64,000 bases of DNA from an uncultured Elusimicrobia bacterium (GTDB lineage: Bacteria > Elusimicrobiota > Elusimicrobia > UBA1565 > UBA9628): assembly GCA_965283875.1 (NCBI GenBank), contig CBDIQC010000001.1, positions 1,086,378 through 1,150,377 on the forward strand, in the 5' to 3' direction. Below are positions 1,531 through 32,963 of the stretch, one piece after another. The notes beneath the pieces are model-generated. The model searched no databases. It was given only the letters and a program-made list of their open reading frames with translations, and had not been told where the DNA came from. Every line of letters starts with the position of its first letter. The first letter of the stretch is position 1. Made by a program: the position numbers and the translations under genes.

Positions 1531-1749
1531 TCACGGCTTCGTCGATTGGCCGCTGCGCGGGTCGTGGCGCCAGCCAATCAGGCTGAGCGCCGTCATCAAA
1601 ACGGCCACGAGGCTGAATCGGTTGAGGGCGGAGTTCGGCAGGCCGGCGCTCACGCGCACGCGGTGAAGGACGGTCGCGATGAGACCGGCGACGGCGAACA
1701 GGTTCATCCAGAACCTGGCGTAAGTCTTGTCGGCGCGTCTTGAGGTCAT
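1531..1749 (-). CDS. small membrane protein (72 aa), translationally coupled downstream of rmuC
   Basis: ATG at 1749 overlaps rmuC stop (ATGA); hydrophobic segments NLFAVAGLIATVL and FSLVAVLMTALSLIGW. Confidence 0.4.
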   Translation of the reverse strand: MTSRRADKTYARFWMNLFAVAGLIATVLHRVRVSAGLPNSALNRFSLVAVLMTALSLIGWRHDPRSGQSTKP

Positions 1750-2858
1750 CCCAGGTCGGCGGGGAGCTTGGGCGGCTCGGGCTGCTCTTCGCCTTTGCGG
1801 ACGCGGTCGATCTTCTGCACCGCGCCGTCCAGGCGTTTGAACGACTTCTGCTCGATGTCGTCGTAGAGCTCGCTGACCTTGGCGATCTTCTCGCCGAGGT
1901 CGGCGAAGCGGGCCTTGAAAGTGTCGTAGGTGGCCCCGAACTGGCCGATGAGCTTGAGCACTTCCTGGGTGGCCTGGGTGAAGTGGAAGTGGTCGAAGGC
2001 CTGGCGGACGACGCCGAGCACCGCGTAAAGCGTGAAGGGCGAGCACAACACCACCTTCTGGGCCAACGCCTCATCGCTGATGCCCGGAAAGCTCTCCTGG
2101 ATGTAGGCGTAAACCTGCTCGTTGGGGATGAACAGGAGCACGTAATCGAGCGTCCCCTCCTCGGGGCTGACGTAGCCGCGGGTGGTGACCTCCTTGATGC
2201 GGGCCTTCACGTCCTTCTCGAATTCCTTCTTGAAACGGAGCTTGTCTTCCGGTGTGACCGCGTGCGACAGGCGCAGCCAGTTGTCGAGCGGGAACTTCAC
2301 GTCCATGTTGAGCTTCTTGCTGTCGGGCAGCAGGAAGGTGAAGTCGGGACGCACGGTGGAGGTGTCGAGCGCGCGGTTCTTCTTGTACTGGATGCCCTCC
2401 TGGAGGCCGGACGCCCGCAGGATGTCCTCGGCCATGCGTTCGCCCCACTGGCCGCGGGCGCGCGAGTTGTCGAGCATGGAGCGCAGGCCCTCGGTCGAGG
2501 TCGCGAGCTTGGCGGTCTGGTCGGCGGCGTCTTTGAGCCCCTTCTCGAGCGAGCCGTATTTGGTCGCCCGGTCGGCCTCGAACTTGCGGACCAGCTCCTC
2601 GTAGTTCTTGAGGCGCTCGGACAGCTTCTCGACCGCGTTCTCGACGGCGACGCGTTTCTCGTCGAGGTCCCCCTTCTGCTTGACGCGCTCGGTCTCGAAC
2701 TTCTGCTCGGCCAGCTCGAGGAAGCGGCGGAAGTCCTCGGTCTGCTGCAAACGCGTCGCCTCCTGGTTCTTGGCGGAGGAGAAGAAAACGAGGTAGAAGA
2801 CGACGCCCGAGATGGCGGCGCCGGCGAGCACGGCGAGCACGACGGTGAGCGCGTTCAT
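1746..2858 (-). CDS. rmuC: DNA recombination protein RmuC
   Basis: N-terminal TM (MNALTVVLAVLAGAAISGVVFYLVF) then long coiled coil and conserved RmuC C-terminal region (LLFIPNEQVYAYIQE...VVLCSPFTLYAVLGVV); start chosen at MNAL (ATG 2858), longer ORF to 3116 rejected. Confidence 0.85.
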   Translation of the reverse strand: MNALTVVLAVLAGAAISGVVFYLVFFSSAKNQEATRLQQTEDFRRFLELAEQKFETERVKQKGDLDEKRVAVENAVEKLSERLKNYEELVRKFEADRATKYGSLEKGLKDAADQTAKLATSTEGLRSMLDNSRARGQWGERMAEDILRASGLQEGIQYKKNRALDTSTVRPDFTFLLPDSKKLNMDVKFPLDNWLRLSHAVTPEDKLRFKKEFEKDVKARIKEVTTRGYVSPEEGTLDYVLLFIPNEQVYAYIQESFPGISDEALAQKVVLCSPFTLYAVLGVVRQAFDHFHFTQATQEVLKLIGQFGATYDTFKARFADLGEKIAKVSELYDDIEQKSFKRLDGAVQKIDRVRKGEEQPEPPKLPADLG

Positions 2859-3379
2859 TTCTTCTTGCGGGACAGGATGCGGACGGTCTCGAGGTCGATC
2901 ACCTCGTCCTTGCAGGTCTTGCCCGTCTCGATGTAGAGCTTCAGCTTGGCGACGCAGTCCTCCCAAGCCCGCGCGTAGCGGTCGTAGTGGCCGTCGGCCG
3001 CGGCCGGGAAACCCGCGTGCAGGAGCGACACCTCGCAGCTCTTCAGCCGCGGGTTGATAAAAAAGGAGGAGAGCGGCGGCACGTCCTTCTCGCCGCGGAC
3101 CGGCTTCCACATCCACGCGACCTTGCGGCCGGGCTCGAGATCCACGAAGAACCCCTCGCGCTCCCCGAAGCCCGACGCGGGCTTGGTCTTAGGCCAGACC
3201 AAGCGCAGGCGTCCGGCGTTGCGCGCGTCGGTCTCGGCGCCCAGCAGCCACCAGCGCGTCAGCTCGCGCGCGGACGTCAGCGCGGCATAGACGCGTTCGG
3301 GCGCGGCTTTCAGCGGCACCTCGTAGCGGATGTCGCGCGTCGCGCCCCGGCGGGGACGGGTGGTATCGGCGGGGGCCAT
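2855..3379 (-). CDS. SRPBCC-superfamily protein (AHSA1/Activator-of-Hsp90-ATPase-homolog-like domain)
   Basis: 174 aa; IRYEVPLKAAPERVYAALTSARELTRWW pattern typical of AHSA1/SRPBCC; ATGA overlap with rmuC start. Confidence 0.65.
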   Translation of the reverse strand: MAPADTTRPRRGATRDIRYEVPLKAAPERVYAALTSARELTRWWLLGAETDARNAGRLRLVWPKTKPASGFGEREGFFVDLEPGRKVAWMWKPVRGEKDVPPLSSFFINPRLKSCEVSLLHAGFPAAADGHYDRYARAWEDCVAKLKLYIETGKTCKDEVIDLETVRILSRKKK

Positions 3380-6105: not shown

Positions 6106-7257
6106 ATGGATTTCGAACCCACTGACGAGCAGAAAACCATCCGCGACACGGTCCGCAAGTTCGCGGAGGCCAAGATCAAGCCCGCCGCCCACGAACTCGA
6201 CGAGAAGGAGGAGTTCTCCGCGGAGCTGACGCGCGGCATGGGCGAGCTGGGCATCTTCGGCATCATCGTGCCCGAGGAGTTCGGCGGCCAGGGCCTGAAA
6301 TACGCCGAATACTGCATCGCCGTCGAGGAGCTCGCGCGCGTGGACGGCTCGCACGCGGCGACCGTCGCGGCGGGCGTGTCGCTGGGCATCGCGCCCATCC
6401 TCTACTTCGGCAGCGACGAGCAGAAGAAGAAGTACCTCCCCCGCCTCGCGGCCGGCGAGGGGCTGTTCGCCTTCGGCCTCACCGAGCCCGGGGCCGGCTC
6501 CGACTCGCGCGGCTCCAAAACGACCGCGGTCGAGAACGCGGACGGCAGCTGGACCATCGACGGCGCCAAGATCTTCATCACCAACGGCTCGACCGAGATG
6601 ACCGACGGCGTCATCGTGCAGGCCGTCAGCGGCCGCAACGAATCCGGCGACCCGGAGTTCACCTGCTTCATCGTGCCCAAGGGCACGAAAGGCTTCTCGA
6701 CCAAGACGATGCACAAGAAGCTGATGTGGCGCGCCTCCAACACCGCGGAGCTCTACTTCGACAAGGTGAAGGTGCCCGCGTCGAACATGCTCGGCAAACG
6801 CGGCGCGGGCTCGCGCCAGATGCTCAAGACGCTCGACGCCGGCCGCCTATCCATCGCGGCCATGGGCCTGGGCTGCGCGCAAGGCGCTTACGAAGCGGCG
6901 CTCGCCTACGCCCAGCAGCGCCAGCAGTTCGGCAAACCCCTCTCGCGCTTCCAGGCCATCGCCTTCAAGCTCGCCGACATGGCGCTCAAGATCGAACACG
7001 CCCGCGTGTTCCTCGCCAAGGCCTGCTGGCTGCGCGACAACGGCAAACCCTTCGGCAAGGAATCGGCCATGGCCAAGCTGTACTGCTCCGAGGTGGCCCA
7101 AGAGGTCGCCAACGAGGCGGTGCAAATCCACGGCGGCTACGGCCTCATGAAGGAGTTCGACGTCGAGCGCTTCTACCGGGACCAGCGCCTGCTCCAGATC
7201 GGCGAAGGCACCTCGGAGATCCAGCGCCTCGTCATCAGCCGCGCCATCGGCTGCTGA
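6106..7257 (+). CDS. acyl-CoA dehydrogenase
   Basis: 383 aa; TEPGAGSD, GxKxFITNG, and C-terminal QIHGGYG...YRDQRLLQIGEGTSEIQR motifs; start at MDFEPTDEQK (ATG 6106), not the 5419 track start. Confidence 0.9.
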   Translation: MDFEPTDEQKTIRDTVRKFAEAKIKPAAHELDEKEEFSAELTRGMGELGIFGIIVPEEFGGQGLKYAEYCIAVEELARVDGSHAATVAAGVSLGIAPILYFGSDEQKKKYLPRLAAGEGLFAFGLTEPGAGSDSRGSKTTAVENADGSWTIDGAKIFITNGSTEMTDGVIVQAVSGRNESGDPEFTCFIVPKGTKGFSTKTMHKKLMWRASNTAELYFDKVKVPASNMLGKRGAGSRQMLKTLDAGRLSIAAMGLGCAQGAYEAALAYAQQRQQFGKPLSRFQAIAFKLADMALKIEHARVFLAKACWLRDNGKPFGKESAMAKLYCSEVAQEVANEAVQIHGGYGLMKEFDVERFYRDQRLLQIGEGTSEIQRLVISRAIGC

Positions 7258-7267
7258 CCGACGGGCG

Positions 7268-8923
7268 TCAGTCCGCGTCGGCCGCGCGTTCGGCGAGGCG
7301 CCGGCGCACGAAGACGACGAGAAGCGCCGTGAGCCCGGCCATGAAGGCGCCCAACAGGAATCGGCGCAGGCCGCCGCCATCGTCCGGCGCGGGAAGCTCG
7401 GCGGGCATCTGCCGCATGCGGACCACGTCGCTCTGGCGGGCCCCGGGCTCGACGGCGGCGCCTTCCGCGCCCGGCGCGGCGCGTTCCACGCCGTAATCCA
7501 GGGTCGATTCGTAGTCGCGCGCCGAAGAGCCGGCATCCGCCGCGCCGCCGGCGCCGTTATCGCCGCCTGCGCCCAGCGCCCCCGATAACGCCTCGAGCAA
7601 AGCGCCCAAGCGGCTCTTCTTGCCGCCGCCGGCCGCGGGTTTACGGCTCGCCTCCTCCTCCGCGAGCTTCTTCTGGAACTCCTCGTCCTCCTTCTGCAGG
7701 CGGTCCCAGAACTCCTGGCCTCGTTTCGCGCGGGGCTTCTCTTCCTTCTTCGCCGTCTCCGCGCCGCCCGCGGCCAGCCGCTTCGTCGCGTCGAGCGACA
7801 TGTTCTTGAGGTCCTCGGGCGCCACGTAGCGGCCCTTGGAATACGAGCCCTGCGTCGCGTTGGGATTGCAGTTGCCGTCGAGGCGGCCGCATGTGCGGCT
7901 CCATTGGAAGTCGCGGACCTCCGGCGTCGCGGTGACGTCCCTAAACGTGCTGGCGCGCAGCTCGGGTTTGGTCGCGTAATGCGAGCGCAGCTCCTGGAAC
8001 TTGTCGCGCGGCAGAACCTGATGGAAATCCGGGCGCTGCATCTGCGCCAGCGGCTCGCGCCCGAGCCGGCTCTGGAGCTCGGCCACCTCCGCCGCCGAGG
8101 CCGGGGAGCCGTCCTTGCGCAGCACGGCCGCGCGCCCGCCGGCGCCTTCCCCCACCTTCAGCCCCATGTCGCGAAACGGCTGGCCCAGGCCGCCCGACTG
8201 AGCCACCTGCAGGTCGGACATACTCATGGCGGCGCCCAGGCCGCCCGTCGCTCCGCCCATGGACGCCCCGCCGCGCGAGCTGCCCGAGCCCGATGAGCCG
8301 CTAAAGCCTGACGAGCCGGCGCCGGATGAGCCCGAGCCCGAAGAGCCGACGCCCCCCGAGCCCCCTTCGCGCGGCCGGAACAGCCGCTGGATCATGCCCG
8401 TGAGACCACGCACCGAGCGTTCGGCGCGCTCCTGTCCCTCGGGCGCGATTCGAGTCGTATCAACGCGTTCGGCCGTATCACGCGCCGCTCTTTCGCCGGC
8501 GACCGCGGCCTCGGCCTGCGCGCGCGCGATGAAAGCATCGGTCGTTTCGCCATCCTGCCTGATTATCGGCGACACCAACGGAAGCGCCGCCGGCTCGGCG
8601 AGTTCACGCACAGTCGGACGTTCAATCGTCTCCACCAAAGGCACCAAAGGCGCTACCGTGAGTTGTGGCGCCGGGTTCTCTTTCGGCGTGACCGCCCGGT
8701 CTCTCGACGGCACGGGAATAAGCGGCAGGCCGCGTGCGGCCCGCTCGACGTTTTGACGCGCCACGTTTTCTTCATAAGACCGCCTCGTGAGATACCCCGC
8801 CACCTCGCTGTCGGACGGTACCGGCCGAAGCTCCCGGTTCTTTAGCCACTGCTCGATGTATGCATCGTCCGCGGCGCCGGCGCTTAGCGCCGTCAGCAGG
8901 GCTAGTCCGGCCAAGAAGTTCAC
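7268..8923 (-). CDS. secreted, C-terminally membrane-anchored protein, paralog A of tandem pair
   Basis: N-terminal signal peptide, Gly/Ser low-complexity linker, conserved 2-Cys domain (WSRTCGRLDGNCNPNATQG), C-terminal TM (LLGAFMAGLTALLVVFV). Confidence 0.6.
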   Translation of the reverse strand: MNFLAGLALLTALSAGAADDAYIEQWLKNRELRPVPSDSEVAGYLTRRSYEENVARQNVERAARGLPLIPVPSRDRAVTPKENPAPQLTVAPLVPLVETIERPTVRELAEPAALPLVSPIIRQDGETTDAFIARAQAEAAVAGERAARDTAERVDTTRIAPEGQERAERSVRGLTGMIQRLFRPREGGSGGVGSSGSGSSGAGSSGFSGSSGSGSSRGGASMGGATGGLGAAMSMSDLQVAQSGGLGQPFRDMGLKVGEGAGGRAAVLRKDGSPASAAEVAELQSRLGREPLAQMQRPDFHQVLPRDKFQELRSHYATKPELRASTFRDVTATPEVRDFQWSRTCGRLDGNCNPNATQGSYSKGRYVAPEDLKNMSLDATKRLAAGGAETAKKEEKPRAKRGQEFWDRLQKEDEEFQKKLAEEEASRKPAAGGGKKSRLGALLEALSGALGAGGDNGAGGAADAGSSARDYESTLDYGVERAAPGAEGAAVEPGARQSDVVRMRQMPAELPAPDDGGGLRRFLLGAFMAGLTALLVVFVRRRLAERAADAD

Positions 8924-21249: not shown

Positions 21250-22482
21250 ATGAAAGACCGAATCTCCCCCGAATTTATCCGCGCCATCCCCAAGTCGGAC
21301 CTGCATCTCCACCTCGACGGCTCCTTGCGTTTGAAGACGCTCATCGAGCTGGCGCGCGAGGCCAAGGTCAAGCTTCCCTCCTACACCGAAGCGGGGCTGC
21401 GGCGCCTGGTCTTCAAGGACGCCTACAAGGACCTGCCCGACTACCTGCACGGCTTCATGTACACCTGCGGCGTGCTCAACGGCGAGCTCGACAACCTCTC
21501 GCGCGTCGCCCAGGAGCTCGTCGAGGATAACGCCGAAGAGGGCGTGCGCTACATCGAGGTGCGCTTCGCCCCGCAGCTGCACGTGACGTCGGCCATCGGC
21601 GTGCGCGACGTCGTGCGCGCCGTCAACAAGGGCCTGGCCGCCGGCGCCAAGGCGCACAACGCGTCTCGCGCCGTCAAATCGGGCGAGGACCTCCCGTTCC
21701 ACTACGGCATGATCCTCTGCGCCATGCGCCGCTTCAAACGCGGCATGTCGCCGTATTTCGCCGACATGCTGCGCCTCATGGAGCATTCACCCAAGGACGA
21801 GGTGTACGCGGCCGCGTCCCTCGAGCTGGCGCGCGCGGGCGTCGAACTCGCGGAAGAAGGCCTTCCCGTCGTGGCCTTCGACCTGGCCGGCGAGGAGTCG
21901 GGTTACCCGCCCGCCGACCACTGGGCCGCCTACCAGTACGCCCACAACCACTTCCTGAGGAAGACGGTGCACGCCGGCGAAGCCTACGGCCCCGAATCCA
22001 TCTGGCAGGCCGTCACGCAGTGCCACGCCAACCGCATCGGCCACGGCACCTTCCTCTTCGCCCACGACCTCATCGCCGACCCCAAGATCGAGGACCGGCG
22101 CAAATACGTGGACGACCTGGCCAACTACCTCGCCAGCCAGCGCATCGGCATCGAGGTCTGCGTCACCAGCAACCTGCAGACCATCCCGTCCATCAAGTCC
22201 ATCGCCCATCACCCCATCCGCAAGTTGCTCGACTACGGCCTGTCGGTCTCGGTGTGCACCGACAACCGCCTGGTCTCCAACACCACCGTGAGCCGCGAGA
22301 TGGGCCTCATCGTCGAGCACGCCAAGCTCTCGCGCTCCGAGCTGCGTCGCCTCGTCATCGCCGGCTTCAAAGGCAGCTTCTTCCACGGCACCTTCGGCGA
22401 GAAGCGCAAGTTCGTCTCCGCCGTCGGCGCCCGCTACGACGCCCTCGAAGCAACTAAGCTGGGGGACAGGCCCTCAGCTTAG
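21250..22482 (+). CDS. add: adenosine deaminase
   Basis: HLHLDGSL, VRYIEVRF, HAGE, CHANRIGHG, SVCTDN motifs of the Add metal-dependent hydrolase family. Confidence 0.9.
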   Translation: MKDRISPEFIRAIPKSDLHLHLDGSLRLKTLIELAREAKVKLPSYTEAGLRRLVFKDAYKDLPDYLHGFMYTCGVLNGELDNLSRVAQELVEDNAEEGVRYIEVRFAPQLHVTSAIGVRDVVRAVNKGLAAGAKAHNASRAVKSGEDLPFHYGMILCAMRRFKRGMSPYFADMLRLMEHSPKDEVYAAASLELARAGVELAEEGLPVVAFDLAGEESGYPPADHWAAYQYAHNHFLRKTVHAGEAYGPESIWQAVTQCHANRIGHGTFLFAHDLIADPKIEDRRKYVDDLANYLASQRIGIEVCVTSNLQTIPSIKSIAHHPIRKLLDYGLSVSVCTDNRLVSNTTVSREMGLIVEHAKLSRSELRRLVIAGFKGSFFHGTFGEKRKFVSAVGARYDALEATKLGDRPSA

Positions 22483-22503
22483 CTGACCTGGCACTGGGCT
22501 TCG
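22452..22503. repeat. copy L of a 52-55 bp palindromic element (internal hairpin ctaagctg-N13-cagcttag)
   Basis: aactaagctgggggacaggccctcagcttagctgacctggcactgggcttcg; inverted copy at 23222-23280. Confidence 0.6.
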
Positions 22504-22522
22504 TTTCAACGTAGCGCGGTAG

Positions 22523-22816
22523 CTACGGCGTGGGTTGTGTGCGACCGCAGGAAAAGGCAACGATGGCGACCAGCATGACCAGGCCCGCCGCCGCCGAGAA
22601 CAACCAGGGGCCGTAGGCCTTGGGCTTCGCCGCTACGTGCGGCCGACGGCCCGGGCCCAGAGGCGGAAGCGCCACCATCGCGGCGTCAATTTCGGCTTCG
22701 GTGAACTTCTTCTTAGCGAGCAGCGCGCGCACCTCGCCGTCCACGCGTTTCTCGCGCTCGGCGAAGGCCAGCACCATCGCGTCGTGCACCCGCGCAGGAT
22801 CCGGCGCGTCGCTCAT
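22523..22816 (-). CDS. small C-terminally membrane-anchored hypothetical protein
   Basis: 97 aa; C-terminal TM WLFSAAAGLVMLVAIVAF; ATGA coupling with cupin gene. Confidence 0.5.
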   Translation of the reverse strand: MSDAPDPARVHDAMVLAFAEREKRVDGEVRALLAKKKFTEAEIDAAMVALPPLGPGRRPHVAAKPKAYGPWLFSAAAGLVMLVAIVAFSCGRTQPTP

Positions 22817-23178
22817 GCTGGGTCGCGTTTAACGGTATCAGGCGAGAACGCCGGCACACACACGGCCACGTACTCCGCTCCGTCGGCACCCGGCGTAGAG
22901 TAACGCACCCACTCGCCCTTCGGCGTGATGACAGCCTGTCCGGCGCGGACCTGAATGGTGCCGGCCTTGGTCTCCACCTGGAGTACGCCCGCGAGCACGA
23001 CGGTGTATTCGTCAAACTGCGGCGTCTGCCCTGGCTCGACCCAGCCGCCCGGACTTTTCATTCGCGCCACGCTGACCGTAGACGTCCCGGAGTTCACGCG
23101 GCCGACGAATTCCTGAATAAGCTTGGGTTTTGTGCCCACGGCTTCGACGACGGAGGGTTTTTCAATCAGCGTAGCCAT
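22813..23178 (-). CDS. cupin-domain protein
   Basis: 121 aa; beta-rich, GxWVExGQ...VxLAGVLQV...GxAVIxPxGEWVRY cupin_2-like pattern. Confidence 0.65.
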   Translation of the reverse strand: MATLIEKPSVVEAVGTKPKLIQEFVGRVNSGTSTVSVARMKSPGGWVEPGQTPQFDEYTVVLAGVLQVETKAGTIQVRAGQAVITPKGEWVRYSTPGADGAEYVAVCVPAFSPDTVKRDPA

Positions 23179-23221
23179 GTTCTAATTCTAGGAAATGTTG
23201 GCTACGGAACAGCCCCATTGT

Positions 23222-23280
23222 CGACTAAGCTGAGTGCCAGGTCAACTAAGCCAGGGGCCTGTCCCCCAGCTTAGTTGGAC
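23222..23280. repeat. copy R (inverted) of the palindromic element; overlaps pepN stop codon
   Basis: reverse complement of 23221-23280 = gtccaactaagctgggggacaggcccctggcttagttgacctggcactcagcttagtcga, about 45/52 identical to copy L. Confidence 0.6.
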
Positions 23281-26276
23281 CAGGCTTTCAGGGAGGCGGA
23301 CTGGGTGGCGCGCAGGCGCAGGCCCAGGTCGATGGTCTCGAGGGTCTGGTCGAGGGTTTTGCGGGCCATCTCGACGTCGTTGGCGGGCGCGCGGAAGAAG
23401 GCCTCGACCTCGGCGCGCCACTCGGGCGAGACGAGGCCGCCGGCCGCCGCGACGACGCGGGTCGCGCCGCGCGGGCCGACCTTGGCGACGAGGGCCGGCC
23501 AGTGGGCCTTCACGAACTCCCAGGCGCGGGCGCGCGAGAGCGGGTTCGACAACAGCCACACGAAGGGCTTCCACGCGTCCTGGGCGCGGATCTCGGGCGA
23601 CAGCGTCATCGCCAGGTAAGACTCGAGCAGCGCGGGCTGCGTGAACTCGGCGAGCGCGCGCAGCATCAGCTCCTTCTGCTCGGGCGTGCGCGGGGAGGCG
23701 AGACGCTCGCGGTACGCGTCGAAGAGCGCCGCGTCGCCGGCGCGGGCGGCGGCGGTGAGCACGACGGGCTGGATGGCGGCGTCCACGGCCGCCGGGTCGT
23801 CGAGGTAGGCGGCCATGCGCGGCGCGACGCCGTCGGCCACGGCCTGGGGCGCGAGCAGCGCGAGAGCGTTGAGCACGGTGGGACGCGTGAGCGTGGCGTC
23901 GGCGGATTCCTTGGGCTTCTTGTCCCAGCCCAGCCGCGCGAGCGCGGGCGCGAAGAAATCCGCGGTGAACGCGGCGAGGCGCGTCCTCTCGACGTCGGTC
24001 GAAGCCAGCTCCTGGCGCAAGGTCTTCAGGTAGCCGGCCGCGTCCTCGAGCAGGAGGCGCGACGGGTCGCCCTTGAAGGCGGCCAACGCGTCGAGGAACT
24101 GATCCACGGGCATCACGCCCGCGCGGGTCTGCGCCCACAGGTGGTTGAGCAGGCCCGAGCTTTCCTCGACGCTCAGCTCCTTGCGATACGCGAGCAGCCC
24201 GGAGAGGGTCCGCGCGTCGAAGGAGAGCCGGTAGTAGCCGACCTCGCCGGCGTTGGGATACGCCCAGAGGACCTCGCCTTTCCCGGGCAGCGTCACGCGC
24301 GCCTGGCGTCCGTCGAGCAGCACGCGGCTCACGCGGGTCTTGCGCTCGCCTTTGAGGCGGTAGCGCACGGTCACGGGCACGGGCCACAGCGACGCGTCCT
24401 CGCGCCCGAACGCGGAGAAACGTTTCTGCGTCAGCGTCAGCTCGCGCCCGGAAAGCGCGGCGCTCACCACGGGCACGCCCGGCCGCTCCAGCCACGCCTC
24501 GGCCATGGCGCGGATGGGTTTGCCCGACGCGGTCTCGATCTCGCGCCAGAAGTGCGCGGACTCGGCGTTTTTGTAGGCGTAACGCTTCATGTAGGCGCGC
24601 ACGCCCTTGAGGAAATCCTTCTCGCCGACGTAGGCCTCGATCATGCGCAGCAGGGCGCCGCCTTTCTCGTAGGACATCGGGTCGAACATGGCCTGGATCT
24701 CGGCGGGCGTGGACGCCTGGGAGCGCACGGCGCGCGTGCCCGGCAGCGCGTCGATGGACAACGGCGCGCGTTTGCCCTGGCCGAAGTCCTCCCACACCTT
24801 CCAGCCCGGCTTCCAGTCGTGCACGACCTTGTAGGCGACCCAGGTGGCGAAAGCTTCGTTGAGCCACAGGTCGTTCCACCAGCCCATCGTCACAAGGTTG
24901 CCGAACCACTGGTGCACGACCTCGTGGCTGACCACCTCGGCCACGCGGCGTTTGGCCGCGTCGGAGGAAAGCTTCGGATCGATGAGGAACGACGCGTCCC
25001 TGAACAGGATGGCGCCCCAGTTCTCCATGGCGCCCGAGGCGAAGTCGGGCGAGACCACGAGGTCGAGCTTGGGCAGCATGTACGGGTAGGCGAACCACTT
25101 GTTGAGGAAGCCGAGCGCCTGCACCGCCGCGTCGAGCGCGAAATCGGCCTGCGCGAGCTGCTCCGGCGGCGCCCACACCGTCACCACGGTTTTGCCGACC
25201 TTGCGGCTCTTGGGCGACAGGCGCGCGGCGAACACGGCGAGCAGATAGGAGGACATCTTCGGCGTCTCGGCGAAGCTCACGACGCGCCGTCCGTCGGCCG
25301 TGACGTCGGACGTCGCGGGCATGTTCGACAACGGCTGCAGGCCCGCCGGCACGTCGAGCGTGAGGCGGAAGGACGCCTTGAAGGCGGGCTCGTCCCAGGA
25401 CGGCAGCACGCGCCGCGCGTGCGTGGGCTCGAGGTGCGTGAACGCCCAGGCCTCTTCCTTGCCGCCGGTTTTGCCGCGCGCCTTGAACAAGCCGCGCATC
25501 AGCTCGTTCATCTTCCCGGAATACTCCAGCTCGACGACGGCGGCGCCCTTTTTGAGCGGCTGCTCGAGAATCAAGGTCACGGTCTCGGCCTTGTCGTCCA
25601 CTAATACCCGCGACGCGTCGAGAACGCGGCCGTTGACCAGCACCCGGTCGTAAGAGAGGTCCAACGAGTTCATCACGAGACGAGTCGTCGGTTCCGTCGC
25701 GTTCAAGCTCGTTTTAACGCGGCCTTTGAACGTTCCGGTCTCCGGCTCGAGCGCGAGGCGCAGGTCGTAACGTTTGGGCTTGACCGACTTCGGCAGGCGG
25801 CCCGCCGGCGCCGCGGGCGTCGCCGGGCTCGCCGGACGCAGGCTCGCGCCGGGCATGTCGGAAAGGCTCCCGCTGGGATTGCAGCCCGCGCAGGCCGGCG
25901 CCAGCTCGCCGAGCTCGCGCGGCAGCAACGCGTCGAAGCCGGCGTCGAGCGCGGCGGCCGGGGCGTCGTGCGCGGCCGTGATGGCGGCGTCGAGGGCTTC
26001 GAGCGCGGCCTTCGGCGCGGCCGCGACGGCGGCGGGCGCCGCGGCGAGCGGCGCGGGGGCGGGAGCGATCGCGGGAGACGGCAGGAAAGACGCGAGCGGC
26101 GCGGCGCTGAAAGGGGCGTTGTTCATGGGTTGGAGGGACGGCGCTCTAGTTGGAACAACGATGAGGCCGCTCAGCGGCCTCACGGACGGCGCGACGCGCG
26201 CGACCGTGCCGGCCGACGCGGGCGAGACGAGGAGCAGCGAAGCGGCGAACGCGCGCGCGGCCTTCATCCCCCGCAT
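23271..26276 (-). CDS. pepN: aminopeptidase N (M1 family), secreted, with N-terminal Ala/Pro-rich linker
   Basis: GAMENWG and HEVVHQWFGNLVTMGWWNDLWLNEAFA (HExxH-18-E) motifs; signal peptide. Confidence 0.9.
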   Translation of the reverse strand: MRGMKAARAFAASLLLVSPASAGTVARVAPSVRPLSGLIVVPTRAPSLQPMNNAPFSAAPLASFLPSPAIAPAPAPLAAAPAAVAAAPKAALEALDAAITAAHDAPAAALDAGFDALLPRELGELAPACAGCNPSGSLSDMPGASLRPASPATPAAPAGRLPKSVKPKRYDLRLALEPETGTFKGRVKTSLNATEPTTRLVMNSLDLSYDRVLVNGRVLDASRVLVDDKAETVTLILEQPLKKGAAVVELEYSGKMNELMRGLFKARGKTGGKEEAWAFTHLEPTHARRVLPSWDEPAFKASFRLTLDVPAGLQPLSNMPATSDVTADGRRVVSFAETPKMSSYLLAVFAARLSPKSRKVGKTVVTVWAPPEQLAQADFALDAAVQALGFLNKWFAYPYMLPKLDLVVSPDFASGAMENWGAILFRDASFLIDPKLSSDAAKRRVAEVVSHEVVHQWFGNLVTMGWWNDLWLNEAFATWVAYKVVHDWKPGWKVWEDFGQGKRAPLSIDALPGTRAVRSQASTPAEIQAMFDPMSYEKGGALLRMIEAYVGEKDFLKGVRAYMKRYAYKNAESAHFWREIETASGKPIRAMAEAWLERPGVPVVSAALSGRELTLTQKRFSAFGREDASLWPVPVTVRYRLKGERKTRVSRVLLDGRQARVTLPGKGEVLWAYPNAGEVGYYRLSFDARTLSGLLAYRKELSVEESSGLLNHLWAQTRAGVMPVDQFLDALAAFKGDPSRLLLEDAAGYLKTLRQELASTDVERTRLAAFTADFFAPALARLGWDKKPKESADATLTRPTVLNALALLAPQAVADGVAPRMAAYLDDPAAVDAAIQPVVLTAAARAGDAALFDAYRERLASPRTPEQKELMLRALAEFTQPALLESYLAMTLSPEIRAQDAWKPFVWLLSNPLSRARAWEFVKAHWPALVAKVGPRGATRVVAAAGGLVSPEWRAEVEAFFRAPANDVEMARKTLDQTLETIDLGLRLRATQSASLKAWSN

Positions 26277-31193: not shown

Positions 31194-32963
31194 TTGCTGA
31201 TCCGGCTCGTCGCGCTCGCCGTCGTCGCCCTGGGGCTCAGCCCCGCGGCGGCGAGCGTGCGCGCGGTCCGGCCCGTCGCCGCGGCTTCTTCCGTTCGTCC
31301 CGTCGTTTTACCCGTCGTGCCGTTCGCCCTCGACCTCGCGCCGTCCGCCGGCATCCGGGCCGCTCTCACGCCGACGCTCCGCGCGCCCAACGACGCGCCC
31401 AAGTCGGCGTCCCAACTGCGCGCCGAGGCCGCCGATGCCGTGGCTCAATGGCGCGCAAGCCGTGCTCCGGCGACCGCCGTCGCTGCCGCCGCGCCCGTCG
31501 CCGCCGTTAACGTCGCCCCGCTCACGCCGGCCGAAGCCATCGCCACCGCGCAGACGAGCGGCCAGGCGCTGTCGCGCCTGGTCGAACTAGGAGTCATCAA
31601 ACCCCAGGACATCCCCGAAGGCGAGACCGACCGCGTCGCCCTCCTTAAAAGGGTCTGGGACGGCGTTTCCGCGAAGCTGACCTCCGACGTCCTGCCGGTC
31701 GATGCCTCCTGGGCCGTGCCCGCCATCACCGTCAAACGCGACGGCAAAACCTACCTCGTGCACGGCGTCGCCCACGGCGAGCTGTACCCGCCGAACCGCC
31801 GCCAGGTGGCGCGCCTCGTGGCCCAGATCGAGAAAAACGGCCACGCCTTGCTCTCCGAGCAGAACCTGCCCGCGCATTACGGCTTCGCCTACGGCCAGGA
31901 GACTATGGACCAGGCGGTCGATCGCCACGGCGTGCCGGCGCGCGTCACCGACGCGGCCGGCGGTCCGGCCTCCGGCGGCATCGCCGCGGTGCACGCCGTG
32001 CTGCGCTGGGCCGCGCTCGGCGGGACGGGTTACGCCTGGCTGCGCGCGGCGCTTTCCCCGACCGACCCGCTGGTCTGGGCGCTGGCCGTCGGCGTCTCGC
32101 TCGGCCTGTGGCTGCTCGCCCGCGGCCTGCAGCCCCTCAACCGCCTCGCGTTGCTTTCGGCCGCGCGCGACGCCGAGCGCCTCGGCTCCAAAGACCTCGC
32201 CGCCCACCTGCGTCGCGAAGCGCGCGCCTTCTTCGGCCCGCGCGGCGTGAAGGCCGAGGACATCCTGCGCCTGCACCTGCCGCCGGGACCGGGCGCGGCG
32301 TCCGATTCGTTGTCCCCCCGCTCATCGGCCATCGCGGGCGCCGCGCTCGCCGCCTCCGCCTCGGTCGTGCACGTGCTGGTCGGCTACCGCCACGCCGCCG
32401 AGATCGCTTGGCGCCTGGCCGGCGCGGACGCCGCCGTCGGGACCGCGGCGCGGGCGACCGGAGCCTCCGAGCGCAACGGCGGTTCGGTGACGAAGCCCTT
32501 GTTCTTCGGCGTGCTCGGCGCCGTCGCTTTGGCCTTCGGGCTCGCTCAGATGAACACGGGCTACATGCTCGCCGGCGGCTTCTGGCTGGGGTCGGCCCTG
32601 TGGGACTACCTTAATAAGGACAAACCCGCCGAAGCCATGACGGCGCGCGCGCTGCTCGGCTACCCGCCCCATGTCTATCTGCTGATGGCCGCCGCCTTCG
32701 TCACCGCCGTGGTCGCCCCCGTCGCCGCGCCGCTCGCGATGCTCGGGCTCGCCGCCTGGTCCGCGCTGACGAGCAAGACGGCCCGGGAATACTTCGACGC
32801 CTCCCAGGCGTTATTCACCCTTTCCATCGGCCTCGGCTTCGGGGCCCTGCTGGCGTACGGCTTGCACGGCTTCGACATCGGCTTCATCGCCGCCGGCGTC
32901 TCCGCCGTGCTGGCCAACATCATCGGCAAACTCATGAAATTCGCCGCGATCCGGAAGTCCTAG
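31194..32963 (+). CDS. TraB/GumN-like protein with C-terminal polytopic membrane domain (TTG start)
   Basis: signal/TM N-terminus, KTYLVHGVAHGE resembles TraB/GumN (Y)LxGTxH motif, about 6 C-terminal TM helices. Confidence 0.4.
   Translation: MLIRLVALAVVALGLSPAAASVRAVRPVAAASSVRPVVLPVVPFALDLAPSAGIRAALTPTLRAPNDAPKSASQLRAEAADAVAQWRASRAPATAVAAAAPVAAVNVAPLTPAEAIATAQTSGQALSRLVELGVIKPQDIPEGETDRVALLKRVWDGVSAKLTSDVLPVDASWAVPAITVKRDGKTYLVHGVAHGELYPPNRRQVARLVAQIEKNGHALLSEQNLPAHYGFAYGQETMDQAVDRHGVPARVTDAAGGPASGGIAAVHAVLRWAALGGTGYAWLRAALSPTDPLVWALAVGVSLGLWLLARGLQPLNRLALLSAARDAERLGSKDLAAHLRREARAFFGPRGVKAEDILRLHLPPGPGAASDSLSPRSSAIAGAALAASASVVHVLVGYRHAAEIAWRLAGADAAVGTAARATGASERNGGSVTKPLFFGVLGAVALAFGLAQMNTGYMLAGGFWLGSALWDYLNKDKPAEAMTARALLGYPPHVYLLMAAAFVTAVVAPVAAPLAMLGLAAWSALTSKTAREYFDASQALFTLSIGLGFGALLAYGLHGFDIGFIAAGVSAVLANIIGKLMKFAAIRKS

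What the first reader, a model, noticed from the sequence alone, without database searches (positions are those of the whole stretch)
22452..23280. Two copies of a ~55-bp palindromic element in inverted orientation bracket a 2-gene cassette (cupin + small membrane protein), each overlapping the stop of a flanking housekeeping gene
Copy L (22452-22503) and copy R (23222-23280, reverse complement) are about 87% identical. Each contains its own 8-bp-stem hairpin (ctaagctg…cagcttag). Copy L supplies the last codons and stop of add, and copy R supplies the stop of pepN. The 0.77-kb segment between them holds two minus-strand genes. This looks like REP/MITE-like elements acting as bidirectional terminators, or the footprint of a small inverted-repeat-flanked insertion between add and pepN.
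Basis: seen in the sequence. Interest (0 to 1): 0.55.

Follow-up and report, generated by a model that had tools for sequence, protein, structure and literature searches.

The report
Palindromic repeat units flanking a cupin operon
Two inverted copies of a small hairpin-forming DNA repeat sit at the ends of the adenosine deaminase and aminopeptidase N genes of an uncultivated Elusimicrobiota bacterium and supply their stop codons; they were added around an older two-gene operon rather than bringing it in, so this is an ordinary REP-like repeat with a few curious traits.

Summary
Arms 22451-22504 and 23224-23277 are 54 nt long and 87% complementary. Each folds into a 12-14 bp hairpin, add ends inside copy L, and pepN's TAA lies in copy R.

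The idea that the cupin cassette is an insertion flanked by inverted repeats is refuted. Five related Elusimicrobiota genomes (six counting the window) all have pepN-cupin-small protein-add in the same order and orientation. In two outgroups (L007, L031) the add-side gap is empty.

The repeats are built from a ~34-nt palindromic unit: a stop-codon-bearing box, a GGGGACAGGCNCC core, and the inverted box. Unit number, orientation and box sequence differ between close relatives. Relative L008 carries perfect inverted doublets like REPINs, including one at a third, unrelated convergent gene pair.

Covariance-model scans of the 64-kb window and 89 kb of relatives found units only at these sites. 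Genome-wide copy number could not be measured, because the source genome is in neither scannable collection.

Most likely these are REP-like units that spread by copy-and-paste. They serve as 3'-end RNA hairpins without a U tract and rewrote the C-termini of add and pepN.

Novelty: new member of a known kind. Interest is modest.

The parts
22451..22504 (+). Copy L. It consists of one full palindromic unit (22452-22485) plus a 19-nt extension (22486-22504, GACCTGGCACTGGGCTTCGT) that looks like a truncated second unit. It overlaps the last 9 codons and the TAG of add.
   Evidence: Inverted repeat I1. Covariance-model hit of 43.6 bits, E 1e-11. Fold of -28.6 kcal/mol with 12 pairs. Stop codons in all three frames in both directions.
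22454..22482 (+). Hairpin of copy L: CTAAGCTGGGGG / loop ACAGG / CCCTCAGCTTAG. One G-U pair exists only on the add-sense strand.
23224..23277 (-). Copy R. It consists of one full unit (23243-23276) plus an extension (23224-23242) that ends in a third GCTTAGT box. Its first box supplies pepN's TAA (23271-23273).
   Evidence: Inverted repeat I1. Covariance-model hit of 42.4-43.7 bits. Fold of -36.5 kcal/mol, z -3.8, on the pepN-sense strand against -28.6 on the + strand.
23195..23226 (-). Degenerate third unit of the GTTAAC-box type (GTCGACAATGGGGCTGTTCCGTAGCCAAC), between copy R and the cupin promoter. It is homologous to intact units at the same position in L005 and L008.
   Evidence: Visual alignment. 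Covariance-model score of only 15 bits, E 0.04, and the sequence was in the training set of R1; model R2, which did not contain it, does not find it. The evidence is weak.
21250..22482 (+). add (adenosine deaminase). The start is placed at MKDRISPEF, as in the relatives. The C-terminal tail after ...YDALE is variable between relatives and is partly encoded by the element.
22523..22816 (-). 97-aa protein with a hydrophobic C-terminal stretch (possible membrane anchor; read from the sequence, not predicted with a tool) and no family match. It is the second gene of the cupin operon (ATGA overlap with cupin) and is convergent with add.
   Evidence: Conserved next to cupin in L002, L005, L007, L008 and L031.
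22813..23178 (-). 121-aa Cupin_2 protein, the first gene of the operon.
   Evidence: Thousands of homologues at 74% identity or more across phyla among the 120 listed.
23185..23190 (-). TAGAAT, a -10-like box 6 nt upstream of the cupin ATG. It is conserved in all relatives and points to the cupin operon's own promoter and a leaderless or near-leaderless mRNA.
   Evidence: Sequence comparison. The function is inferred.
23271..26276 (-). pepN (M1 aminopeptidase). Its stop codon is supplied by copy R. The start coordinate is the longest ORF and is uncertain.

Best explanation
The two copies belong to a small, lineage-specific family of REP-like palindromic units of about 34 nt. Each unit is a 6-8 nt box containing a stop codon (CTAAGC, GTTAAC, CCTAAC or CTGAG), a core GGGG[A/C]CAGGC[A/C]C, and the inverted box.

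A single unit just after pepN is old: it is present in all six genomes compared. In the ancestor of the window's closest relatives a copy appeared in inverted orientation in the previously empty gap between add and the small-protein gene. Units have since been duplicated, flipped, extended (window, L005) or turned into perfect inverted doublets (L008, REPIN-like), and they reached at least one unrelated convergent gene pair.

The cupin/small-protein operon was already there and has its own promoter. The units did not deliver it.

Because the boxes carry TAA, TAG and TGA in all three frames on both strands, a unit landing on a gene's 3' end gives that gene a new stop and a new short tail. add became ...TKLGDRPSA*, and pepN became ...AWSN* instead of ...AWSLK*.

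Functionally, I infer that the units act in RNA as stable 3'-end hairpins. Copy R would close the pepN transcript and insulate the cupin promoter. Copy L would serve the convergent add and small-protein transcripts. This would work by hairpin-dependent termination or protection from 3' exonucleases, not as classical intrinsic terminators with a U tract.

What is shown: the anatomy, the conserved synteny, the presence/absence pattern, the family relationship and the folding. What is inferred: the copy-and-paste mechanism (an unknown transposase, or gene conversion and template switching) and the RNA function.
For: - **Real inverted repeat with strong hairpins:**
- **Conserved gene order:** synteny and orientation are the same in L002, L005, L007, L008 and L031.
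- **Empty site in outgroups:** Add protein identity places window, L005, L008 and L002 at 96-98% and L007 and L031 at 89-92%. The add-side gap is empty in L007 and L031, while the pepN-side gap has a single unit in both.
- **Alignable family with some covariation:** twelve units align over 34 columns with invariant GGG..G..C core positions. 74% of cells are paired, against 24-53% for slid controls, and 5 pairs change on both sides. One example is CTAAG/CTTAG becoming CTGAG/CTCAG at the L008 third site.
- **Detection of an unseen site:** model R1 found a doublet it was not trained on in L008, at 7256-7329 (27.9 bits, E 2e-6). It lies exactly between the stop codons of two unrelated convergent genes.
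- **Young or maintained doublets:** the L008 doublets are perfect or near-perfect palindromes of -50 to -84 kcal/mol, z -10 to -14.
- **Conservation at coding level:** the 54-mers of the window and L005 are 83-96% identical, including across sites (52/54), while flanking coding DNA is 81-91% identical and the rest of the gaps barely aligns.
- **Strand-specific pairing:** wobble pairs keep the stems intact only on the strand transcribed with add or pepN.
- **Stops in all three frames in both directions:**
- **Remodelled C-termini of add and pepN across relatives:**
Against: - **Dispersal is barely documented.** Covariance-model scans with filters off over the 64-kb window and 89 kb of relatives found units only at the two cupin-flanking gaps plus the one extra L008 site, which is 3.7 kb away.
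- **A strict genome scan found little.** The 18-mer scan of 185,579 species genomes found only one Elusimicrobiota match, the add locus of the L002 genome. That pattern was specific to one box type.
- **The source genome could not be scanned.** No RAYT or other transposase was looked for.
- **The L008 doublets differ between sites but are identical within a site.** This fits palindrome formation in place better than transposition of one master REPIN.
- **No transcript data.** There is no U tract, and the terminator scan is silent at both copies.
Confidence: 0.55

Rival explanations
1. The hairpins are locally evolved and are not a mobile family. An ancestral pepN terminator hairpin was copied once into the add-side gap, and in L008 into a nearby gap, by template switching or ectopic gene conversion. 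The copies are kept similar by gene conversion between the inverted repeats, and there are no other copies in the genome.
For: All but one of the unit-bearing sites seen in about 150 kb of sequence are the two cupin-flanking gaps, and the exception is 3.7 kb away. Only one match was found in the L002 genome. The mosaic sharing of variant positions among the four 54-mers suggests exchange between copies. The L008 doublets are site-specific, as expected for palindrome formation in place.
Against: Copying a 34-54 nt segment into an empty gap that lacks flanking homology is hard to explain by gene conversion alone. The third L008 site lies between unrelated genes at the edge of a 2.4-kb insertion. 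Conservation of the element at or above coding level between species needs selection or recent spread.
Confidence: 0.3
2. The inverted repeats are the ends of, or recombination sites for, a mobile or invertible cupin cassette. Candidates are a composite element, an integron-like attC pair, or an inverton switched by a recombinase or by homologous recombination between the 22-nt identical cores.
For: The inverted repeats bracket a self-contained two-gene unit with its own promoter. The cupin protein is 74-77% identical in other phyla and sits in different contexts there. The L008 boxes CCCTAAC/GTTAGGG loosely resemble attC R''/R' cores. Variant positions appear swapped between sites in window versus L005.
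Against: The cassette is present in the same place and orientation in 6 of 6 genomes, including two without the add-side element. The boxes do not fit RYYYAAC/GTTRRRY consistently. The swap of variants cannot be produced by a single inversion, because the inner halves of the elements would travel with the cassette. No inverted arrangement was seen.
Confidence: 0.05
3. The conserved core and extension are protein-binding or promoter DNA rather than RNA hairpins. Candidates are the sigma-54-like TGGCAC-N5-TT motif, or the sigma-70-like TTGACC-17-GACAAT inside copy R that would drive the cupin operon.
For: The promoter scan finds TTGACC (23245) -17- GACAAT (23217) on the cupin strand, against 0.0 expected. 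TGGCAC-N5-TTNG recurs in all four long copies.
Against: The -12 GC of sigma-54 promoters is absent in all four copies (TTAG, TTCG, TTGG, TTAG). Half of the copies point antisense into the 3' end of the small-protein gene. The sigma-70-like -10 is not conserved in L005. Relatives without the extension (L002, L007) keep the conserved TAGAAT box right before the cupin ATG.
Confidence: 0.07

Closest known systems
REP / BIME elements of enterobacteria and pseudomonads, and REPINs (REP doublets mobilised by RAYT transposases; Bertels & Rainey, PMC3116915, PMC3337134)
   Same: Short imperfect palindromes lie at gene 3' ends and between convergent genes. They occur as singlets, as mosaics in alternating orientation, and (in L008) as inverted doublets with a short spacer that form long hairpins. 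Number and orientation vary between close relatives. Singlets look like decayed or partial forms. Co-option as transcript 3' hairpins is plausible.
   Different: No high copy number has been shown: 2 units in 64 kb, and one extra site in a relative. No RAYT has been identified. The units overlap stop codons and nine codons of add instead of being strictly extragenic. Box sequences differ from site to site, whereas REPIN populations cluster around one master sequence. The phylum is Elusimicrobiota, for which a full-text search found no description of such repeats.
Rickettsia palindromic elements (RPE) and Neisseria Correia elements (from my own knowledge, not checked here)
   Same: These are small palindromic repeats that can become part of coding sequence or change gene ends (RPE), or that bring terminators and promoters next to genes (Correia).
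   Different: RPEs insert in frame inside genes and are 100-150 bp. Correia elements have 26-bp terminal inverted repeats, a TA duplication and hundreds of copies. None of these features is seen here.
Rho-independent terminators shared by convergent genes
   Same: A GC-containing hairpin lies immediately after, or across, the stop codons and is usable on both strands.
   Different: There is no U or A tract on either side. The loop/core sequence is conserved far beyond what a generic terminator needs. The same sequence is reused at two or three loci.

Membership tests
REP / REPIN | Short (about 20-40 nt) imperfect palindrome able to form a hairpin | tested here: met
   The 34-nt unit forms 12-14 bp stems. 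74% of cells are paired across 12 units, against 24-53% for slid controls.
REP / REPIN | Extragenic position, typically at 3' ends or between convergent genes | tested here: inconclusive
   All sites are at gene 3' ends. However, units overlap the stop codons, and in the window they overlap 9 codons of add.
REP / REPIN | Many dispersed copies per genome (tens to hundreds) | tested here: inconclusive
   Only the 2 units were found in 64 kb. L008 has 3 sites in its 9.3-kb locus. The L002 genome gave one match to a strict 18-mer. The source genome is absent from both scannable collections. Zero further copies in about 63 kb only excludes more than roughly 150 copies in 3.1 Mb.
REP / REPIN | [quoted passage not shown] | tested here: not met
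   Each window copy is one unit plus a truncated second unit in direct orientation. True doublets occur only in relative L008, with spacers of 8, 30 and 8 nt.
REP / REPIN | A cognate RAYT (HUH-Y1 transposase) gene, usually flanked by the repeats | not tested
   Only 15 window proteins were scanned against Pfam or NCBIfam, and none is a transposase. The rest of the genome is not available.
MITE | Terminal inverted repeats plus a target-site duplication | tested here: not met
   A 9-nt ACTAAGCTG/CAGCTTAGT pair bounds copy R but is degenerate in copy L. The flanks (CCA|...|CGA and GCA|...|TTC) show no duplication.
MITE | Filled versus empty sites among relatives | tested here: met
   The add-side gap is empty in L007 and L031, holds a short form in L002, and holds long forms in the window, L005 and L008.
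Intrinsic terminator | GC-rich hairpin followed by a U tract | tested here: not met
   The hairpin is present, but the tails are UUAGCUGACC and UUAGUUGACC. The terminator scan reports nothing at either copy.
Integron attC / gene cassette | R''/R' core sites RYYYAAC...GTTRRRY, a promoterless cassette, and presence of the cassette that depends on the sites | tested here: not met
   The boxes fit the consensus only sporadically (sequence inspection). The cassette has a conserved -10-like box of its own. It exists without the add-side site in L007 and L031.
Invertible DNA segment | Both orientations observable, with a recombinase nearby | tested here: not met
   Orientation is the same in 6 of 6 genomes. 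A recombinase was not searched for, and read-level data are not available.
Rfam RNA families | Match at the gathering score | tested here: not met
   Only sub-threshold miRNA-hairpin look-alikes were found.

The most novel reading that the evidence does not exclude
These units are the visible tip of an undescribed REPIN-like mobile system in Elusimicrobiota. Its palindromic units carry stop codons in every frame on both strands, home to gene 3' ends, replace native stop codons and terminal codons of housekeeping genes, and are converted in place into perfect long palindromes. This would be a repeat family that routinely rewrites protein C-termini while providing transcript ends.
Probability: 0.25. 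Interest if true: 0.5.

Novelty: new member of a known kind. Interest (0 to 1): 0.3.

Why it matters
If the family proves to be dispersed, it would extend REP/REPIN-type repeats to a poorly studied, mostly uncultivated phylum. It would also give a clean example of small repeats remodelling the ends of conserved enzymes: add and pepN have different C-terminal tails in each close relative. For annotation, the practical point is that the last codons of add and pepN are repeat-derived, and that the cupin operon is ancestral rather than a mobile cassette. Otherwise this is an ordinary intergenic hairpin repeat.

Tried and rejected
- **Cassette delivered by the inverted repeats:** rejected on conserved synteny and the empty add-side site in L007 and L031.
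- **Single inversion to explain the swapped variant positions between window and L005:** rejected, because the inner halves of the elements would move with the cassette, whose orientation is unchanged.
- **Integron attC:** the boxes do not fit RYYYAAC/GTTRRRY consistently, and the cassette has its own promoter-like box.
- **Sigma-54 promoter (TGGCAC-N5-TTGC):** the -12 GC is missing in all four copies.
- **Classical intrinsic terminator:** there is no U tract.
- **Known RNA family:** none found.
- **Copy-number scans:**
  - The genome-contig scan with CTAAGCYRGGGGACAGGC returned 14 hits. One is the add locus of the L002 genome; the rest are unrelated, including 7 Acidimicrobiaceae MAGs that share a conserved stretch.
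  - The metagenome-contig scan with GCTTAGYTGACCTGGCAC returned 3 chance hits in AT-rich contexts.
  - Neither collection contains the window's genome or L005's sample, so the scans say little about copy number.
- **Plasmid and phage BLAST:** no match.
- **Search for another locus of the L008 genome via RmuC homologues:** this landed on a different, more distant MAG (L034), which has no units.
- **Homologues of the L008 155-aa gene:** these showed that L008 has a 2.4-kb insert next to its third unit site, but gave no second dispersed site.
- **Literature search for Elusimicrobiota palindromic repeats:** nothing relevant.
Full report
**Observation**

The window (66.6% G+C) carries an inverted repeat with arms 22451-22504 and 23224-23277. 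The arms are 54 nt long, 87% complementary and 719 nt apart. A 22-mer is identical in both arms, and neither half of the element occurs anywhere else in the 64 kb even with three mismatches; shuffles give zero.

Each copy folds on its own. Copy L forms 12 contiguous pairs on the + strand (-28.6 kcal/mol, z -2.5). Copy R forms 14 pairs plus an outer helix on the minus strand (-36.5 kcal/mol, z -3.8). On the opposite strands the same positions become A-C mismatches, so the stems are best on the strand transcribed with add (copy L) or pepN (copy R).

- adenosine deaminase, ending ...EATKLGDRPSA* inside copy L;
- an M1 aminopeptidase, whose TAA is the TAA of the AACTAAGC box of copy R;
- between them, on the minus strand, a 121-aa Cupin_2 protein and a 97-aa protein with a hydrophobic C-terminal stretch and no family match, joined by an ATGA overlap.

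**Organism and relatives**

The cupin protein is 100% identical to a protein on a 3.1-Mb NCBI contig. Its closest named relatives are Elusimicrobiota MAGs. I retrieved the locus from five relatives:
- L002 (GCA_033875325.1);
- L005 (a JGI metagenome);
- L007 and L031 (Logan assemblies);
- L008 (GCA_964618085.1).

Where the contig reaches far enough, all have pepN, cupin, small protein and convergent add in the same order and orientation; L031's contig ends just upstream of cupin, before pepN. By Add protein identity, window, L005, L008 and L002 form a tight group (96-98%), and L007 and L031 are outgroups (89-92%).

In more distant Elusimicrobia and in Oleiharenicola the cupin gene sits in other contexts and no unit is present.

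**What the gaps look like**

On the add side:
- L007 has a 7-nt gap, and in L031 the two genes overlap by 4 nt. This is an empty site.
- L002 has only a short hairpin inside the add tail (...KLGDRHPA*).
- The window and L005 have the 54-nt form.
- L008 has a 96-nt perfect palindrome.

On the pepN side:
- Every genome has at least one hairpin of the same type.
- L005 and the window have two different units in tandem.
- L008 has an inverted doublet.

The cassette is therefore older than the elements, and the model of an insertion flanked by inverted repeats fails.

**The unit**

Twelve units from the six genomes align over 34 columns with almost no gaps. The consensus is AACTAAGCnGGGGGACAGGCACCnAGCTTAG, with invariant core positions and boxes that change in step: CTAAGC/GCTTAG, GTTAAC/GTTAAC, CCTAAC/GTTAGG, CAAGC/GCTTG and CTGAG/CTCAG.

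On the named 12-pair helix, 74% of cells pair, against 24-53% when the partner is slid, and five pairs show changes on both sides. The shuffle control is only moderately exceeded (6 of 500 for percentage paired, 25 of 500 for the covariation score). The sequences are related, so this is supportive rather than proof.

The 54-nt element of the window is one unit plus about 20 nt that looks like a truncated second unit in direct orientation, ending in a third box.

**Is it a dispersed family?**

A covariance model built from the units (R1) was run with filters off.
- **Window.** It found only the two copies (43-44 bits), plus the weak degenerate unit 23195-23226, which was in its training set. 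A 14-bit hit at 31480 lies inside a coding region.
- **Relatives.** It recovered the known gaps and one site it had not been trained on, L008 7256-7329 (27.9 bits, E 2e-6). That site reads TGA-CAACTGAGAAAGGGGACAGGTACCTAACTCAGTT-TCATATAG-inverted copy-TCA. It is a perfect palindrome of -78 kcal/mol (z -14) that abuts the stop codons of two convergent genes with no homologue in the window.
- **Context of that site.** Compared with L032, where the same 147-155-aa gene is followed directly by add, L008 has a 2.4-kb two-gene insert there, with the doublet at its junction.
- **Broader model.** A second model (R2) found nothing more in the window or in 89 kb of relatives.

The two public-collection scans were uninformative about copy number. 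The strict 18-mer hit only the add locus of the L002 genome among Elusimicrobiota. The 18-mer from the extension gave three chance hits. Neither collection holds the window's genome or L005's sample.

Dispersal therefore rests on one extra site in one relative. Zero further copies in about 63 kb of the source genome excludes only very high copy numbers, more than roughly 150 in 3.1 Mb.

**Conservation**

Between the window and L005, coding DNA is 91% (add), 90% (pepN) and 81% (cupin) identical, and the rest of the intergenic gaps hardly aligns. The four 54-mers are 83-96% identical. The best pair (52/54) is the window's add-side copy against L005's pepN-side copy.

The element is therefore at least as constrained as coding sequence, or it has been exchanged or re-seeded since the species split. 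The mosaic of variant positions points to exchange between copies. The numbers are small, and a single inversion cannot explain the pattern.

**Consequences for the flanking genes**

The element has TAA, TAG and TGA in three different frames when read from either side. The tail of Add after ...YDALE differs in every genome:

| Genome | Add tail |
|---|---|
| window | ATKLGDRPSA* |
| L005 | AKLGN* |
| L002 | (YDALA)AKLGDRHPA* |
| L008 | SKLTP* |
| L007 | (YAELE)SRLPF* |
| L031 | AAATKTVRA* |

PepN ends ...AWSLK(K)* in L007 and L008. It ends ...AWSN*...AWSD* and ...TWAD* where the CTAAGC box abuts it. The units have evidently replaced native stops and terminal codons.

**Function (inferred)**

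There is no U tract, and the terminator scan calls nothing at either copy. No Rfam family matches.

A TAGAAT box 6-8 nt before the cupin start codon is conserved in all relatives. A similar box (TAGAAT or TACAAT) sits there even in distant Elusimicrobia. The operon therefore has its own promoter immediately downstream of copy R.

The most economical reading is that copy R is the 3' hairpin of the pepN transcript and shields the cupin promoter from read-through. Copy L would be a shared 3' hairpin for the convergent add and small-protein transcripts. From my own knowledge, not checked here, REP hairpins stabilise upstream mRNA (Newbury et al. 1987), and REPs within about 15 nt of a stop codon can depress translation through ribosome stalling (Liang, Rudd and Deutscher 2015). 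Both effects could apply, because the stop codons lie inside the stems.

**Comparison with known systems**

REPs and REPINs, as defined by Bertels and Rainey (PMC3337134, read; PMC3116915), are the closest match:
- short palindromes;
- singlets that look like decayed remnants;
- inverted doublets with a spacer that form long hairpins;
- occasional co-option as terminators.

The window copies fail the doublet criterion, and copy number and a RAYT gene are untested. I therefore call the units REP-like, not members of that family. MITE, intrinsic terminator, attC and inverton each fail a defining feature that I could test (see the membership table).

**Verdict**

This is a new member of a known kind and of modest interest.

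The unusual points are:
- the all-frame stop boxes;
- the rewritten enzyme C-termini;
- conservation at coding level or above;
- the perfect long palindromes in one relative.

Noticed in passing
Spacings are 4073, 1706, 3972, 2521 and 2416 nt. They include YD-repeat coding sequence (TYDAQGRRLTENGPDGLTTYAYD). This looks like an Rhs/YD polymorphic-toxin locus with repeated core ends and variable tips.
   Followed up: partly
window 23179-23190 (minus strand); L002, L005, L007, L008, L031, L030, L028 upstream of cupin: A TAGAAT or TACAAT box is conserved 6-8 nt upstream of the cupin start codon in all Elusimicrobiota relatives. This suggests a leaderless or near-leaderless cupin mRNA.
   Followed up: partly
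L008 4843-7331: L008 has a 2.4-kb insert (genes of 601 aa and 178 aa, in opposite orientation) between a thioredoxin-like 155-aa gene and add, relative to L032 (335 aa, 147 aa, add). A perfect doublet with 34-nt arms of the same unit family sits at the junction, and its arms extend into both stop codons.
   Followed up: partly
window 22813-23178; L026, L028, L030: The 121-aa cupin is 74-77% identical to proteins in Verrucomicrobiota (Oleiharenicola, Opitutus) and Acidobacteriota. It sits next to nucleoside or SAM-cycle genes in different phyla: add here, metK-ahcY in Oleiharenicola, and a PRK-domain gene in other Elusimicrobia. No PDB relative was found by sequence.
   Followed up: partly
window 23217-23245 (minus strand): A sigma-70-like TTGACC-17-GACAAT lies partly inside copy R and points at the cupin operon, with 0.0 such sites expected in shuffles. 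It is not conserved in L005.
   Followed up: partly
L031 402-1214: In L031 the small protein downstream of cupin is 270 aa instead of about 97 aa. The difference is a Pro/Ala-rich repetitive insertion before the conserved C-terminal hydrophobic segment, and the gene overlaps add by 4 nt.
   Followed up: no
L011, L012, L016, L018, L021, L022 (Acidimicrobiaceae MAGs): The 18-mer CTAAGCTGGGGGACAGGC sits in a roughly 100-nt stretch conserved across six Acidimicrobiaceae genomes, next to a CCTCCTTCTTC motif. It is unrelated to the Elusimicrobiota unit, and Rfam has no match.
   Followed up: partly
window 1746-3116: The longest ORF for RmuC (456 aa) overextends the N-terminus. Homologues are uniformly 370 aa.
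   Followed up: no
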